DNA of 64,000 nt from the NCBI GenBank assembly GCA_036337435.1, contig JAYZEG010000024.1, positions 32,499 through 96,498 of the forward strand. The letters run 5' to 3'. Made by a program: the position numbers and the translations under genes. The notes below the pieces were generated by a model that worked only from the letters and a program-made list of their open reading frames with translations, was not told the DNA's origin and searched no databases. Below are positions 146 to 2,694 of the stretch, piece after piece; position 1 is the stretch's first letter, and each line of letters begins with the position of its first letter. The DNA is from Myxococcota bacterium. GTDB taxonomy: Bacteria; Myxococcota_A; Bradymonadia; UBA7976; UBA1532.

Positions 146-197
146 GAAATTCGACCAGGGAAGGGTTCGAATTTCAGCGTACTGAGTTGTCAGTACG
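146..197 (+). promoter_or_regulatory. Structured flgE leader: hairpin with AGGGAA (ANGGAN, CsrA-type) loop plus a second hairpin
   Basis: GAAATTCGA-CC-AGGGAA-GG-GT-TCGAATTTC (146-175) and perfect CGTACTGA-GTTG-TCAGTACG (178-197). Confidence 0.45.
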
Positions 198-246: not shown

Positions 247-1548
247 ATGCCAGGACTATTGGGTTCATTGTTTGTTGGCCAAGGAGGCCTGAACACCTCC
301 GGTATTGGTATCAGTGTTATTGGTGACAATATCGCAAATTCAAATACGACGGGTTTTAAGACCGCTCGTGCGCACTTCGAAGATCTCTTAAGTGAGTTCA
401 TTGTGGGTGCTGCAGGTGCTAACCAGTTGGGTCGTGGTGTGACCCTTCAACGGATTGAGAAGAGTTTCAGCCAAGGTAGTTTTCAGAGCACGGGTGTCCC
501 CACGGATCTCGCTATCTCTGGTAACGGGATGTTCGTGTTGAGTGGACTGGCTTTAGGGAAATCTCAGAACGTCTACACGCGTAATGGTGCATTTAGATTT
601 GATGACGAAGGGTTCCTTGTCAATCAGGCAGGATATCGAGTTCAGGGTCACAATTCTTCAGAAGCCGGTGAGGTCAGCTCCATCGTAGAAGATGTTAAGA
701 TCGCGCCGGGCCGTTTGCTACAGCCCAATGCAACCGATGAAGTCATCATCAACGCCAACTTTAGACCTGATGATCCGATTTTCGCCTTCGACGTCAACAA
801 TCCTGAAGACACTGCGACCTTTAGAACATCGGTCGTCGCTTTTGATGGGTTAGGTAATCCCCATGAAATCACCGTGTATGGTAGCCGGACTGCGGCCAAC
901 GAGTGGGACATGAACGCCGTGGTTGATGGTGCTGATATCGCCGGTGGTGCTGCGGGTGTCCCAACCCTAATTCCACTGGGCACCTTATTGTTTGATCAGC
1001 AGGGACAGTTGCTCGATGAACAGATTAATAACCCCATCAACATTCCGTGGGCTGGCACAGTTCCGGGTGATGTCACCTTTGAGTTTGGTGATGCCATTAA
1101 CGATGGTGGTACAGGACGTGAGGGCACCACTCAATGGAATGAAACATCGGAAAGTGTCGCTCACTACCAAAGCCAAAATGGGTATGGCACCGGCGAACTC
1201 GATGGGATTTCCATCGATGACCGAGGTCAAATTATTGGTGCGTTTACCAATGGTAGACAGCAGATTTTAGGCCAGGTGATTTTGGCTAAATTCGCAGACC
1301 CAACTGGATTGGCGATGGTCGGTGGGAACAACTTTGTTGCGACAGCCGCCAGTGGTGAGGCCATCGTTGGTGAAGCGCGCGGAGGCGGGAGAGGCGCGAT
1401 CGTTGCATCAACCCTCGAATTGTCGACCACTGAGCTGAGTGGTCAATTTATCGATTTGATTACCTATCAGCGCGCATTTCAGGCGAATTCCAGAACGATT
1501 CAAACAGCAGATGGCCTGTTGCAGGAGATATTCCAGATTCTAAGATAG
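247..1548 (+). CDS. flgE: Flagellar hook protein FlgE
   Basis: N-terminal GDNIANSNTTGFK, TGVPTDLAISGNGMF, YTRNGAF, C-terminal LELSTTELSGQFIDLITYQRAFQANSRTI; AGGAGG RBS before ATG 247. Confidence 0.95.
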   Translation: MPGLLGSLFVGQGGLNTSGIGISVIGDNIANSNTTGFKTARAHFEDLLSEFIVGAAGANQLGRGVTLQRIEKSFSQGSFQSTGVPTDLAISGNGMFVLSGLALGKSQNVYTRNGAFRFDDEGFLVNQAGYRVQGHNSSEAGEVSSIVEDVKIAPGRLLQPNATDEVIINANFRPDDPIFAFDVNNPEDTATFRTSVVAFDGLGNPHEITVYGSRTAANEWDMNAVVDGADIAGGAAGVPTLIPLGTLLFDQQGQLLDEQINNPINIPWAGTVPGDVTFEFGDAINDGGTGREGTTQWNETSESVAHYQSQNGYGTGELDGISIDDRGQIIGAFTNGRQQILGQVILAKFADPTGLAMVGGNNFVATAASGEAIVGEARGGGRGAIVASTLELSTTELSGQFIDLITYQRAFQANSRTIQTADGLLQEIFQILR

Positions 1549-1572
1549 CGACATCTCAATTTAACTAAATGA

Positions 1573-2015
1573 CGGCATCTTGATCGATGTTGGGTGCATG
1601 ACCGCTCGGCGGTGGCTGGTCCAGGGAAGGACCGGTGGTTCGCAACAACTGACCACGGAAGGAAAGGTAACGGACCAGGCACGGCCAAGCGGTCGGCACC
1701 CAGCTGATCATGCTCTAGGATGGAGCATAACGAGATGACCGAAGGAGCAAACGGGTAGAAGACAAAATCAACCTCACCGAGGGGTTGAGCTTTTGACAAA
1801 TGACTCCATGAATCTAGCGACGCACTCGCATCGCTAGATCCTCGCGCATGTACCTGAGGAATACCCAGCCTCATAACAGGGTGCATGTGCAAAAAAAGAG
1901 ATGGGATAGACCCATTTCCCATCTCACAAGGCGCCAACAAGACCCATAACCGATTGGTGCTTACTCGAGTGCCCGGTAGCTACCCACTACCGGGCACTCA
2001 TCCCCCTCTCTTTTT
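1573..2015 (+). ncRNA. Putative large structured non-coding RNA (GGA-rich domain plus ACCCA-loop hairpin array)
   Basis: Eight or more helices readable by eye, G-U wobbles mostly on the + strand, recurrent loop motif ACCCA, no credible ORF; see findings. Confidence 0.65.
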
Positions 2016-2142
2016 GATTGGGGTTGAAGATTGGAATTTGGTACCGCACGATTTTCTCACGTGCGTGTAGACGACATTTGGTTTAATCTCCCACAAAGTA
2101 GGTCAATGTCCTACGGTGGCAGAATGGAAGTTAGGTGCCTTC

Positions 2143-2694
2143 ATGGCTGAAGAGAATGAAGATCCACAGGCAGAAGAAGAGGGCGGAGAAGAGTCCGAAG
2201 GCTCTGGTGGTGGTGGTAAACTGGTCCTAATTATTGGTCTAATCAACACCATTGGACTTATCGGTTTGGCGTACATGGGCATGACTGGTGGCTTCGGCGG
2301 CGGGGGCGGTGGTCCAACGCTCAGTCCAGAGGCCATGGGAGAAAGTGCGCTTCAGGGTAAGAAAACCGTTGAAGACCGGCCCTCGGCCGCGCCCGGACCT
2401 AAAGTAGAGCTTGGTGAGTTGGTGGTTAACCTCAAGGAACCCACGGGCGATCGCTTTCTGAAAATCAAAGCCGAGCTGGAATTAGACAGCGAAGAGACGC
2501 GTGCGGAAGTTGAAGGTCGTTTGACATCGATTCGTTATGAACTCAATCTATTGCTCTCTGGGCAGCGGGTCGTCGATGTCCAGGGGCCTGATGCCATAGA
2601 AACCCTACGTAAGGCCATGATTAGACGGGCTAATTCTCGATTGGCCAAAGGGCGGATTGTGAACGTTTGGCCCGGCGAGTGGATAGTGCAGTAA
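2143..2694 (+). CDS. fliL: Flagellar basal body-associated protein FliL
   Basis: Single N-terminal TM, LVVNLKEPTGDRFLKIKAELEL, C-terminal WIVQ; immediately before fliM. Confidence 0.9.
   Translation: MAEENEDPQAEEEGGEESEGSGGGGKLVLIIGLINTIGLIGLAYMGMTGGFGGGGGGPTLSPEAMGESALQGKKTVEDRPSAAPGPKVELGELVVNLKEPTGDRFLKIKAELELDSEETRAEVEGRLTSIRYELNLLLSGQRVVDVQGPDAIETLRKAMIRRANSRLAKGRIVNVWPGEWIVQ

What the first reader, a model, noticed from the sequence alone, without database searches (positions are those of the whole stretch)
1573..2015. Large structured RNA embedded in the flagellar operon between flgE and fliL
Seen: the ~590-nt flgE-fliL gap has no credible ORF but is almost fully base-paired. There is a closing helix (1573-1580/1733-1741), a ~40-bp interrupted stem (1581-1622/1672-1710) and side hairpins at 1635-1656 and 1710-1728. 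Six further hairpins follow at 1763-1795, 1812-1839, 1844-1890, 1898-1925, 1931-1960 and 1967-1999 (perfect 13 bp), then a pyrimidine/T tract at 2001-2015. At least six non-Watson-Crick stem pairs are G-U on the + strand, against one C-A that would be G-U on the - strand, which points to selection at RNA level on the operon strand. It matches no RNA family I recognise (RNase P, tmRNA, SRP, riboswitch). Inference: a previously undescribed two-domain regulatory RNA co-transcribed with or processed from the hook operon, linking flagellar transcription to post-transcriptional control.
Basis: partly seen in the sequence, partly recalled or inferred. Interest (0 to 1): 0.9.

Follow-up and report, generated by a model that had tools for sequence, protein, structure and literature searches.

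The report
Flagellin-targeting RNA after hook gene
The gap after the flagellar hook gene encodes a conserved, folded RNA of about 450 bases that looks built to bind the regulator protein CsrA and to pair with the start of flagellin messages, which would be a new RNA layer in the control of flagellum assembly.

Summary
Window 1549-2142, between flgE and fliL, has no conserved ORF and folds far better than shuffles. That holds on both strands, so strand comes from alignments, which show about 80 G-U against 7 A-C cells, favouring +.

A covariance model of the 5' domain finds one copy in 17 of 28 genomes of one Bradymonadia family. It finds none in 85 other genomes of the class. All 17 copies lie directly after flgE. 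27 of 43 predicted pairs show compensatory changes. Rfam has no match.

- **Domain 1 (1589-1728):** a long covarying stem that displays three near-invariant C-A-N-GGA-N-G-G motifs. This is the CsrA/RsmE high-affinity consensus. The genome carries csrA-fliW, and 73 of 74 flagellin leaders examined have the same motif over the Shine-Dalgarno.
- **Domain 2 (1798-2015):** a 13-nt segment antisense to a flagellin Shine-Dalgarno region, plus four hairpins with ACCCA loops complementary to the flagellin start AUGGGUCU. The last hairpin is terminator-like.

Flagellin genes rank 1, 2 and 10 of 4162 predicted targets.

Best reading: a hook-gene-linked dual-function riboregulator, both CsrA binder and flagellin antisense. 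All of this is computational. Transcription evidence is weak, resting on metatranscriptome contigs only.

The parts
247..1548 (+). flgE (flagellar hook protein) CDS, directly upstream of the RNA
   Evidence: Pfam FlgE_D2, D1, rod N- and C-terminal domains. 53-94% identical FlgE precedes the RNA in 17 of 17 relatives.
1575..1742 (+). Domain 1: the conserved core matched by covariance model R1
   Evidence: R1 match at G000:C24:34073-34240, 142 bits. One copy in 17 of 28 family genomes, 0 of 85 elsewhere in the class.
1589..1622 (+). P1, 5' arm of the long interrupted stem
   Evidence: Helix 1: 32 pairs, 22 with changes on both sides, 96% of cells paired. Coordinates.
1672..1704 (+). P1, 3' arm
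   Evidence: As for the 5' arm.
1621..1630 (+). GGA motif 1 (CCAGGGAAGG). It is unpaired at the top of P1, or forms a hexaloop on an alternative 8-bp local hairpin at 1615-1636.
   Evidence: A, GGA and GG are invariant in 35 of 35 aligned sequences. Mean P(unpaired) 0.63. Alternative hairpin listed.
1653..1662 (+). GGA motif 2 (CCACGGAAGG). In most genera it is a hexaloop on a covarying 5-6 bp stem.
   Evidence: Invariant in 35 of 35. Helix 3 has 3 of 5 pairs with compensatory changes. The start-to-start spacing of 32 nt from motif 1 comes.
1710..1728 (+). P4 hairpin carrying GGA motif 3 (UAGGAUG loop, motif at 1715-1723)
   Evidence: Helix 4 has 2 of 4 pairs with compensatory changes. The motif is kept in 33 of 35 sequences.
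1804..1816 (+). Anti-Shine-Dalgarno segment (CUCCAUGAAUCUA), antisense to a flagellin leader
   Evidence: Its 13-mer complement occurs only twice in the 4.38-Mb assembly: in the flagellin leader on C30 and, as antisense, here. CUCC-N-UG is present in 13 of 20 relatives' RNAs against about 1 expected. Flagellins rank 1, 2 and 10 of 4162 targets.
1812..1839 (+). Hairpin with a 12-bp stem, conserved within the genus; overlaps the 3' end of the anti-SD segment
   Evidence: Inverted repeat I4, MFE, alignment A1.
1855..1873 (+). ACCCA-loop hairpin 1 (ACCCA at 1863-1867), nested in the larger stem 1844-1890
   Evidence: P(unpaired) 0.99. Stems covary between genera.
1898..1925 (+). ACCCA-loop hairpin 2. 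The loop contains AGACCCAU, complementary to AUGGGUCU.
   Evidence: P(unpaired) 1.00. Hairpin listed.
1929..1962 (+). ACCCA-loop hairpin 3. Loop bases 1939-1949 (AAGACCCAUAA) are an 11-nt complement of a flagellin start region.
   Evidence: The complement TTATGGGTCTT lies at the C30 flagellin start.
1967..1999 (+). ACCCA-loop hairpin 4: a perfect 13-bp GC-rich stem, terminator-like
   Evidence: Inverted repeat I2. A homologous hairpin with a T-rich tail was found in 12 of 19 relatives checked, 10 of those with a (G)ACCCA loop, and the stems covary.
2000..2015 (+). Pyrimidine tract ending in TTTTT (2011-2015), the presumed 3' end
   Evidence: Sequence. Not called by the simple scan in this window. 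Canonical T runs occur in many relatives.
2143..2694 (+). fliL CDS, the next gene
   Evidence: Pfam FliL. fliL-fliM follow the RNA in 14 of 17 relatives.

Best explanation
A roughly 430-470-nt non-coding RNA is made on the + strand directly downstream of the hook gene flgE. It arises either by read-through from flgE or, in some genera, from a sigma-54-type promoter of its own. It ends at the GC-rich hairpin 1967-1999 and the T tract.

Its 5' domain is a long stem that displays three A-N-GGA-N motifs and binds CsrA dimers. These are the same motifs that sit in the leaders of this organism's flagellin mRNAs.

Its 3' domain carries one single-stranded segment antisense to the flagellin Shine-Dalgarno/CsrA site. 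It also carries four C-rich loops (ACCCA) antisense to the flagellin start codon region (AUGGGUCU). This domain base-pairs with flagellin mRNAs at their translation initiation region and most likely blocks translation.

The RNA would thereby couple expression of the hook gene to flagellin synthesis, on top of the FliW-CsrA partner switch.

**Shown:** conservation, structure, strand, position, motifs and complementarity.

**Inferred:** CsrA binding, pairing in vivo, the sign of the effect, and the way the RNA is made.
For: **Structure and conservation.**
- z = -7.67.
- 17 of 28 family genomes carry one copy each, and 0 of 85 in other families of the class.
- 43 predicted pairs, 27 with compensatory changes. 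95.6% of cells are paired against 81.7% in shuffles (0 of 500 reach it) and 29-46% with partners slid.
- The same structure is predicted on 35 sequences that include metagenome contigs.
- 19 of the 74 pattern-matched metagenome loci are full model hits. 17 of those 19 have the flgE 3' end upstream; the other 2 sit at contig edges.

**CsrA link.**
- Motifs 1 and 2 are invariant in 35 of 35 sequences, and motif 3 is kept in 33 of 35.
- The motif equals the CANGGANG hexaloop named as the CsrA/RsmE high-affinity site in PMC4894983 (passages).
- csrA and fliW are adjacent in the genome.
- Within the family, CsrA was found in 19 of the 20 genomes with FlgE and in 1 of the 8 without.
- 73 of 74 flagellin genes in 21 genomes have CA-N-GGAG within 35 nt upstream of the start.

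**Antisense link.**
- The 13-mer of 1804-1816 has its only other copy in the genome, in the complementary sense, in a flagellin leader.
- Against 4162 crude translation-start regions, flagellins rank 1, 2 and 10 with that segment. With segment plus loops they rank 1, 2, 10, 19, 85, 314 and 327.
- ACCCA occurs 78 times in about 6 kb of 20 domain-2 regions, against 34 times in about 38 kb of flanking genes. It occurs 0-1 times per 700 nt after flgE in 23 loci outside the family.
- All four ACCCA in the window have P(unpaired) of at least 0.99.
- 46 of 74 flagellin genes start ATGGGTCT.
- In genera g4, g12 and g16 a contiguous module, (G)ACCCA-N6-12-CUCCNUGAG, is antisense to the whole flagellin initiation region. 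Duplex energies are about -16 to -31 kcal/mol, with z from +1.7 to -3.3 over all pairs tried; the best pairs reach -24 to -30.
- Domain 2 is also present after flgE in the three flagellated family genomes that lack a domain-1 hit.

**Expression (weak).** RNA-library contigs from 4 studies cover the element. Two contigs bridge the flgE stop.
Against: - No experiment supports any step. CsrA binding and RNA-RNA pairing are inferred from motifs alone.
- The anti-SD segment was found by looking for complementarity to flagellin leaders. Its top rank is therefore partly built in. The genome-wide ranking tests specificity only.
- Across 20 genomes, the longest antisense match to flagellin leaders averages 9.45 nt, against 8.5 and 8.75 in two controls. 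It exceeds them in only 12 and 9 of 20 genomes.
- With the ACCCA loops alone, flagellins rank 16, 31, 98, 300, 398, 490 and 971 of 4166, and many other genes score as well.
- GGT at flagellin codon 2 is 38 of 53 in high-GC loci, against 17.6% elsewhere in the same genes. A general preference for A/T near start codons explains this as well: GGA is enriched too, and the GGT:GGA ratio is unchanged.
- ATGGGTCT starts also occur in the three genomes without a domain-1 hit, so start and loop are both invariant and give no covariation test.
- In this window the anti-SD segment lies 5' of the ACCCA loops. The two cannot form one continuous duplex with a single mRNA.
- A-N-GGA-N hexaloops are not enriched genome-wide (224 against 199-361 for control loops).
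- The window's terminator has a displaced T tract.
- The RNA-seq data are contigs. They give no strand, no ends and no level, and DNA carry-over is possible.
- A CsrA decoy and a translational blocker would push flagellin synthesis in opposite directions. The net effect is unknown.
Confidence: 0.5

Rival explanations
1. Pure CsrA sponge. The RNA only titrates CsrA, like CsrB or RsmZ. The ACCCA loops and the CUCC segment serve folding, stability or another partner, not flagellin mRNA.
For: Three invariant CANGGANG-type motifs. csrA-fliW is present. The loop-only target ranking is unspecific. Average antisense matches barely exceed controls.
Against: Only 3-4 GGA sites. Domain 2 persists in the 3 flagellated genomes with no domain-1 model hit, one of which (G015) keeps a reduced domain 1, so it has a function of its own. 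The 13-nt and 11-nt unique complements to flagellin leaders and the contiguous anti-initiation-region modules would be left as coincidences.
Confidence: 0.17
2. The ACCCA loops are binding sites for an unknown RNA-binding protein. On this reading the RNA is a multi-site protein sequestration RNA for a second regulator, and the match to AUGGGUC is accidental or reflects that protein's own mRNA site.
For: There are 2-6 copies per RNA of one loop motif, placed at the 3' side of 7-10-nt loops on covarying stems. This is the architecture of protein-titrating RNAs. Several flagellin leaders carry a hairpin with AUGGGUC in its loop at -93 to -109, which could be a protein site. Hfq was not found in the genome, which is 87% complete.
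Against: No candidate protein has been identified. The flanks of ACCCA extend the complementarity to flagellin in a lineage-specific way: AGACCCAU in g1, and an 11-nt match, read TCGACCCATCG on the RNA strand, in G021. Adjacency to the anti-SD element in g4, g12 and g16 fits antisense pairing better.
Confidence: 0.15
3. Cis-acting element only. It would be a structured flgE 3' UTR controlling flgE mRNA stability, or a CsrA-responsive attenuator setting read-through from flgE into fliL-fliM.
For: It lies between flgE and fliL in 14 of 17 relatives. A terminator-like hairpin precedes fliL. One RNA contig bridges 1982-2123. The flgE leader also has a GGA hairpin.
Against: The RNA stays with flgE where other genes follow (G018, G007). 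G004 has a terminator between flgE and the ACCCA hairpins. Four genomes in three genera have a strict sigma-54-like promoter after the flgE stop, and two more have a near match. A cis role does not explain the complementarity to flagellin leaders encoded on other contigs.
Confidence: 0.1
4. No function as RNA: a hairpin-rich spacer, a DNA-level element or a decayed gene.
For: Both strands fold equally well.
Against: Compensatory changes in 27 of 43 pairs. A G-U against A-C bias. Invariant loop motifs across genera whose FlgE is only 52-67% identical. A single copy. No Pfam hit and no conserved frame.
Confidence: 0.03

Closest known systems
CJnc230 / FlmE sRNA of Campylobacter jejuni (PMC11187230; abstract and section headings seen)
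   Same: It is encoded directly downstream of flgE in a FliW-CsrA organism. [quoted passage not shown] It tunes late flagellar gene expression by base-pairing.
   Different: No sequence or Rfam relation was found here. This RNA has a predicted length of about 450 nt; CJnc230's length was not checked. CJnc230's stated targets are flgM and a flagella-interaction regulator, not flagellin. No CsrA-type motif array is reported in what I read.
CsrB/CsrC and RsmX/Y/Z CsrA-sequestering sRNAs
   Same: GGA motifs are exposed in loops or junctions of a structured RNA, with a CANGGANG-type consensus. The 32-nt start-to-start spacing of the repeats holding motifs 1 and 2 is of the order of the 18-nt optimum cited in PMC4894983.
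   Different: No Rfam match. Only 3-4 sites. It sits inside a flagellar gene cluster of a FliW-bearing bacterium, whereas PMC4894983 (passage) reports an anti-correlation between FliW and CsrB/C sRNAs. It carries an additional antisense domain.
McaS of E. coli (base-pairing sRNA that also binds CsrA; passage and a reference title in PMC7652899)
   Same: It combines antisense regulation with CsrA binding in one RNA and acts on the motility/biofilm choice.
   Different: Unrelated in sequence. That McaS is Hfq-dependent is recalled, not checked here. Hfq was not found in this genome.
UTR-derived flagellar sRNAs of E. coli: MotR, FliX, FlgO, UhpU (PMC10578931, abstract)
   Same: These sRNAs are born from UTRs, three of them from flagellar genes. 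They affect flagellin level and flagella number.
   Different: They are sigma-28-dependent, and 'Hfq' appears among that paper's keywords. They are much shorter (recalled). MotR and FliX pair within coding sequences.
C-rich-loop antisense RNAs of Gram-positive bacteria (S. aureus RNAIII, RsaE; recalled, not checked here)
   Same: Several hairpin loops with a C-rich seed pair with G-rich ribosome-binding regions without Hfq.
   Different: Here the seed is ACCCA against the start codon plus a glycine codon, not UCCC against the Shine-Dalgarno. There is no homology.

Membership tests
CsrB/RsmZ-type CsrA-sequestering sRNA | Several A-N-GGA-N motifs exposed in hairpin loops or single strands | tested here: met
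   Three motifs in the window, two invariant in 35 of 35 and one kept in 33 of 35. A fourth lies 5' of P1 in most other genera. P(unpaired) is 0.41-0.63 for the full motifs and 0.94-0.97 for the AAGGA parts.
CsrB/RsmZ-type CsrA-sequestering sRNA | Match to a curated Rfam model (CsrB, CsrC, RsmX/Y/Z, PrrB_RsmZ and others) | tested here: not met
   The E-value scan to E = 10 gave no such family. The gathering scan of 19 relatives' loci gave 0 matches.
CsrB/RsmZ-type CsrA-sequestering sRNA | Physical binding and titration of CsrA | not testable with these tools
   Needs EMSA, ITC or RIP-seq. Only the co-occurrence of csrA with the RNA is shown: CsrA found in 16 of the 17 RNA-bearing genomes.
3'-UTR-derived / flgE-linked sRNA (CJnc230/FlmE type) | Encoded immediately downstream of the flgE CDS on the same strand | tested here: met
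   17 of 17 genomes. 17 of 19 metagenome contigs, with the other 2 cut at the contig edge. Strand from the G-U bias.
3'-UTR-derived / flgE-linked sRNA (CJnc230/FlmE type) | Co-transcribed with flgE and released by processing | tested here: inconclusive
   RNA-library contigs at 400-1589 and 1478-1642 bridge the flgE stop, but contigs show neither strand nor ends. A strict sigma-54-like motif follows the flgE stop in 4 genomes, with a near match in 2 more.
3'-UTR-derived / flgE-linked sRNA (CJnc230/FlmE type) | Sequence or structure homology to CJnc230 | not tested
   No CJnc230 sequence was compared directly. Whether Rfam 15 holds a model for it was not checked.
Intrinsic (Rho-independent) terminator | GC-rich stem-loop immediately followed by a U tract | tested here: inconclusive
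   The window has a perfect 13-bp stem at 1967-1999, but TTTTT starts 11 nt later and the scan did not call it. A homologous hairpin with a T-rich tail was found in 12 of 19 relatives checked.
Trans-acting antisense sRNA against a translation initiation region | Accessible seed complementary to the SD or start codon of the target, conserved across species | tested here: met
   Unique 13-nt complement. ACCCA loops unpaired. CUCC-N-UG in 13 of 20 RNAs. Flagellins rank 1, 2 and 10 of 4162. Function is not shown.

The most novel reading that the evidence does not exclude
One RNA, made with the hook gene, is both a mimic and an anti-mimic of the flagellin leader. Domain 1 copies the leader's CsrA sites and captures CsrA. 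Domain 2 is antisense to the leader's ribosome-binding site and start codon. It would be the first RNA partner of CsrA in a FliW-type system, where the field holds that protein antagonism replaces sRNA antagonism. It might use CsrA as a bridge or chaperone to load itself onto flagellin mRNAs. The hook-completion checkpoint would then be an RNA-protein-mRNA three-body switch. Parts of domain 2 look as if they arose from an inverted copy of a flagellin 5' region; by my manual comparison, G018 shows about 80% antisense identity over 26 nt (sequences).
Probability: 0.35. Interest if true: 0.85.

Novelty: new variant of a known kind. Interest (0 to 1): 0.72.

Why it matters
CsrA controls flagellin translation in many bacteria through the protein antagonist FliW. 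The reviews and papers I read state that such bacteria lack CsrA-binding sRNAs, and that FliW and CsrB/C-type sRNAs are anti-correlated (PMC4894983 passages).

This is a conserved, covariation-supported RNA with CsrA-type sites, in the flagellar cluster of a FliW-bearing lineage, that is also antisense to the flagellin start. It would show that RNA-level control was added to the partner switch independently. It would also show that hook-gene-linked sRNAs, so far shown in Campylobacter, are a recurrent solution for ordering flagellar assembly.

It gives a concrete, testable RNA family of about 36 sequences in hand. I found nothing in print on regulatory RNAs in Bradymonadia (Myxococcota). The searches were made, title and abstract listings only.

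The claims are computational. The organism is known only from metagenome-assembled genomes, which limits immediate testing.

Tried and rejected
- **Repeat or mobile element.** Rejected: one copy in the genome, and the other blastn rows have E > 0.6.
- **Small protein (for example FlbD at this position).** Rejected: no Pfam hit for 8 gap ORFs. The similar peptides seen in relatives follow nucleotide conservation in shifting frames.
- **Known RNA family.** Rejected. The 13-nt MS2-operator row is a chance match to an ACCCA hairpin.
- **Strand from folding energy.** Not informative.
- **Clusters of the strict motif CCANGGANGG in the genome.** Only two exist. The second, on C56, lies inside a 957-aa Cys-rich repeat ORF and is taken as chance.
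- **Genome-wide enrichment of ANGGAN hexaloops.** None found.
- **Codon-2 GGT test for selection on pairing.** Positive, but not discriminating against AT-rich-start bias.
- **Longest-k-mer antisense test across 20 genomes.** Only marginally above controls.
- **Sigma-70 promoter scan of 1200-2300.** One site on the - strand, as expected by chance.
- **Sigma-54 or sigma-28 motif upstream of the RNA in this window.** None found.
- **Earlier findings of this scan.** Nothing on record.
- **Metatranscriptome contigs.** Depth over the element is higher than over the neighbours in two runs: X3, 27 against 6.5-14; X12, 49 against 3-7. The tool states that contig depth cannot rank parts of a gene, so this is no more than a hint. 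Parts without cover mean nothing.
- **Pattern scan of metagenome contigs.** 55 of 74 loci were not full model hits. I did not examine them further.
- **Intramolecular pairing of the anti-SD segment with GGA motif 3.** Considered. Only 6 nt of complement in the window, and I saw none by eye in G018's sequences; no systematic check was run. Not pursued.
Full report
**What is there**

The window opens with flgE (247-1548), followed by a 594-nt gap, then fliL (2143-2694) and fliM. All three genes are confirmed by Pfam. The gap holds only unconserved ORFs with no Pfam match.

The gap folds with an MFE of -249.2 kcal/mol, z = -7.67 against 100 dinucleotide shuffles. The reverse complement folds just as well, z = -7.65. 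Energy therefore proves hairpin richness, not strand.

Rfam gives nothing. The three rows at E 2.4-8.4 are far below gathering scores. A gathering scan of 19 relatives' loci gave 0 matches. The sequence is single-copy in its 4.38-Mb, 87%-complete assembly.

**Conservation and structure**

- blastn found the central 70-100 nt in 8 of 24 same-family genomes, always between flgE and fliL.
- A covariance model was built from 9 sequences: R1, 169 positions, 49 pairs.
- R1 finds exactly one full-length match in 17 of 28 family genomes, E from 1e-12 to 1e-32. It finds none in 85 genomes of the other eight families of the class. It finds none in 77 flgE loci outside the family (3 of 80 hit, all family members).
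- The closest relative's record is titled 'MAG: Bradymonadia bacterium'.
- On an independent MAFFT alignment of the 17 sequences, RNAalifold predicts 43 pairs, 27 of them with compensatory changes.
- 95.6% of cells are paired, against 81.7% in column shuffles (0 of 500 reach the observed values for any of five measures) and 29-46% when partners are slid by 1-3 columns.
- My tally of the pair tables gives about 80 G-U cells against 7 A-C cells. Reverse-strand model hits score about 31 bits against about 150.
- A pattern scan of metagenome contigs gave 74 loci, of which 19 are full R1 hits. 17 of those 19 have the flgE 3' end upstream; the other two are cut by the contig edge.
- With 18 of these added (one exact duplicate left out), 35 sequences give the same fold: 39 pairs, 27 compensatory.

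**Anatomy of domain 1**

- P1 (1589-1622 paired with 1672-1704) is a stem of about 32 bp with small interruptions.
- At its top sit CCAGGGAAGG (1621-1630) and CCACGGAAGG (1653-1662). After it lies a small hairpin (1710-1728) with UAGGAUG in its loop.
- The pattern C-A-N-G-G-A-N-G-G is invariant in 35 of 35 sequences for the first two sites and kept in 33 of 35 for the third.
- In most genera the second site is a hexaloop on a covarying stem. Stems such as CUCUCC/GGAGAG, CCUGCC/GGCAGG and CCCGCC/GGCGGG can be read directly in the alignment rows.
- In this genus the second site is single-stranded, next to a genus-specific hairpin at 1634-1656.
- Site 1 can alternatively form a hexaloop on an 8-bp local hairpin (1615-1636). 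That hairpin competes with the top of P1.
- Most genera other than this window and G001 have roughly 70-160 nt more 5' sequence, with a further hairpin and a fourth A-N-GGA.

**Why CsrA**

- The motif is the CANGGANG apical-loop consensus cited for CsrA/RsmE. A spacing of tens of nucleotides suits a dimer (PMC4894983, passages).
- The genome has csrA (C28:31292-31444) next to fliW (C28:31596-31952). On the same contig lie a weak Flagellin_N ORF, probably flgL by my inference, and five of the seven flagellin genes.
- In the family, FlgE is found in 20 of 28 genomes and CsrA in 20 of 28. All FlgE genomes but one (G014, 92% complete) have CsrA. Seven of the eight genomes without FlgE lack it.
- The flagellin leaders are textbook FliW-CsrA targets. 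73 of 74 flagellin genes in 21 genomes have CA-N-GGAG over the Shine-Dalgarno. Most of the seven in this genome also have an A-N-GGA-loop hairpin at -50 to -70.
- The flgE leader carries such a hairpin as well (146-175, with the same 10-mer as site 1), as do several relatives.
- Binding itself is inferred, not shown.

**Anatomy of domain 2**

Downstream of the core, every one of the 20 flagellated family genomes has 2-6 ACCCA motifs, most of them in predicted hairpin loops. This includes G015, G004 and G009, which lack an R1 hit. The ACCCA, often GACCCA, usually sits at the 3' side of a 7-10-nt loop. In 10 of the 12 terminator-like hairpins found among 19 relatives, the last hairpin carries that loop.

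- ACCCA occurs 78 times in about 6 kb of these regions, against 34 times in about 38 kb of flanking genes.
- It occurs 0-1 times per 700 nt after flgE in 23 loci outside the family.
- My hairpin criterion was lax: 62 of 78 motifs lay in loops, against 18 of 34 in the control. Density, not loop placement, is the statistic to trust.
- In the window the four ACCCA lie at 1863-67, 1910-14, 1942-46 and 1982-86, each with P(unpaired) of at least 0.99.

**Link to flagellin**

- The flagellin genes begin AUGGGUCU in 46 of 74 cases. This is the exact complement of AGACCCAU, which is present in loops 2 and 3 of the window. Loop 3 has an 11-nt complement to the C30 flagellin start.
- Between domain 1 and the loops lies CUCCAUGAAUCUA (1804-1816). 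Its 13-nt complement occurs only once elsewhere in the assembly, in the Shine-Dalgarno/CsrA-site region of the C30 flagellin leader. The 11-mer occurs only there and in a second flagellin leader.
- CUCC-N-UG is found at a similar place in 13 of 20 RNAs. Background is 0.13-0.18 per kb, so about one would be expected.
- Against 4162 crudely called initiation regions of the genome, flagellins rank 1, 2 and 10 for the segment. For segment plus loops they rank 1, 2, 10, 19, 85, 314 and 327.
- In genera g4, g12 and g16, ACCCA and CUCC-N-UGAG are adjacent and in the order needed to pair with one flagellin initiation region, from the Shine-Dalgarno to codon 3. The best duplexes reach -24 to -30 kcal/mol, z down to -3.3. 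Weaker pairs, including G008 and G010, have z near 0 or positive.
- Some flagellin leaders also present AUGGGUC in a hairpin loop at -93 to -109, on covarying stems, in four genera. In G021 that loop has an 11-nt complement in the RNA.

**Cautions on the flagellin link**

- The segment was found by looking at flagellin leaders.
- The loops alone are not specific: flagellins rank 16-971 of 4166.
- The average longest antisense match barely exceeds controls.
- The GGT bias at codon 2 (38 of 53 against 17.6%) is equally explained by AT-rich starts.
- Start and loop are both invariant, so there is no covariation test.
- In the window the two elements are in the wrong order for one continuous duplex.

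**How it is made**

- In the window only 26-40 nt separate the flgE stop from the core, and no promoter motif was seen there. Read-through from flgE is the simplest source.
- In G014, G022, G041 and G015 a near-consensus sigma-54-type element (TGGCACG-N4-yyGCA; consensus recalled) lies 8-14 nt after the flgE stop. G006 and G020 have a near match.
- G004 has a terminator between flgE and the ACCCA hairpins.
- The RNA stays with flgE where fliL does not follow, in G018 and G007.
- Marine metatranscriptome contigs from four studies cover the element, and two bridge the flgE stop. Contigs give no strand, ends or level.
- Hfq was not found in the assembly.

**Interpretation**

The best-supported reading is a flgE-linked riboregulator with two activities: CsrA binding (domain 1) and antisense pairing to flagellin initiation regions (domain 2).

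I commit to repression of flagellin translation while the hook gene is expressed. CsrA binding would either set a threshold or help duplex formation. The second possibility has a precedent, which I know only as a reference title in PMC7652899. The sign and the interplay are inferences.

Rivals are a pure CsrA sponge, an RNA that sequesters an unknown ACCCA-binding protein, and a purely cis-acting 3' UTR or attenuator.

**Comparison with what is known**

- The nearest analogue by position and logic is CJnc230/FlmE of C. jejuni, downstream of flgE and processed from its mRNA (PMC11187230, abstract).
- By mechanism, the nearest are CsrB/RsmZ sponges and the dual-function McaS.
- By origin, the nearest are the UTR-derived flagellar sRNAs of E. 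coli (PMC10578931, abstract).
- No homology to any of these was found. The combination of activities and the host lineage are new.

Literature searches for this RNA or for regulatory RNAs in Bradymonadales found nothing relevant (listings only).

Noticed in passing
window 146-175: The flgE 5' leader has a hairpin presenting CCAGGGAAGG, the same 10-mer as GGA motif 1 of the RNA. Relatives have A-N-GGA hairpins at the same place. The flgE mRNA itself may be a CsrA target.
   Followed up: partly
G000 contig C28:30354-53468, C30:60384-60800, C62:136142-136552: There are seven flagellin paralogues, five of them in one cluster. That contig also carries a weak Flagellin_N ORF (probably flgL), then csrA and fliW. 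Family members have 4-11 flagellin genes each.
   Followed up: partly
flagellin leaders, e.g. G000 C28 at -97 and C30 at -93; G018, G021, G043, G004: One flagellin paralogue per genome carries an upstream hairpin with (G)AUGGGUC in its loop, on stems that differ between genera. It copies the start-codon region and could kiss the ACCCA loops.
   Followed up: partly
L026, L029, L032 (G014, G022, G041) and L051 (G015), 8-14 nt after the flgE stop: A near-consensus sigma-54-type -24/-12 element (TGGCACG-N4-yyGCA) lies directly after flgE. This suggests an RpoN-dependent promoter for the RNA in genera g4, g12 and g13. Nothing comparable is present in this window.
   Followed up: partly
G000 contig C56:45003-47873: A 957-aa Cys-rich repeat protein with thrombospondin-type-3-like Asp-rich repeats and a C-terminal tail resembling the MYXO-CTERM sorting signal (my recollection of that signal). 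It holds the only other close pair of CCANGGANGG motifs, taken as chance.
   Followed up: no
L030 / L014 (G018), downstream of the RNA: In G018 the RNA is followed not by fliL but by an ORF that begins like a P-loop ATPase (GxxGxGKS motif). Synteny is broken here while the RNA stays with flgE.
   Followed up: no
window 1893-1905 and 2003-2015: A 13-nt inverted repeat, 92% complementary, could close the last three ACCCA hairpins into one long-range helix that includes the T tract. Conservation in relatives was not checked.
   Followed up: no
domain 2 of most relatives, just 5' of the last hairpins (e.g. L020, L028, L031, L051, L053): A short conserved motif, CUUGAAGCG, recurs before the penultimate ACCCA hairpin in many genera. 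It is absent or changed in this window, and its role is unknown.
   Followed up: no
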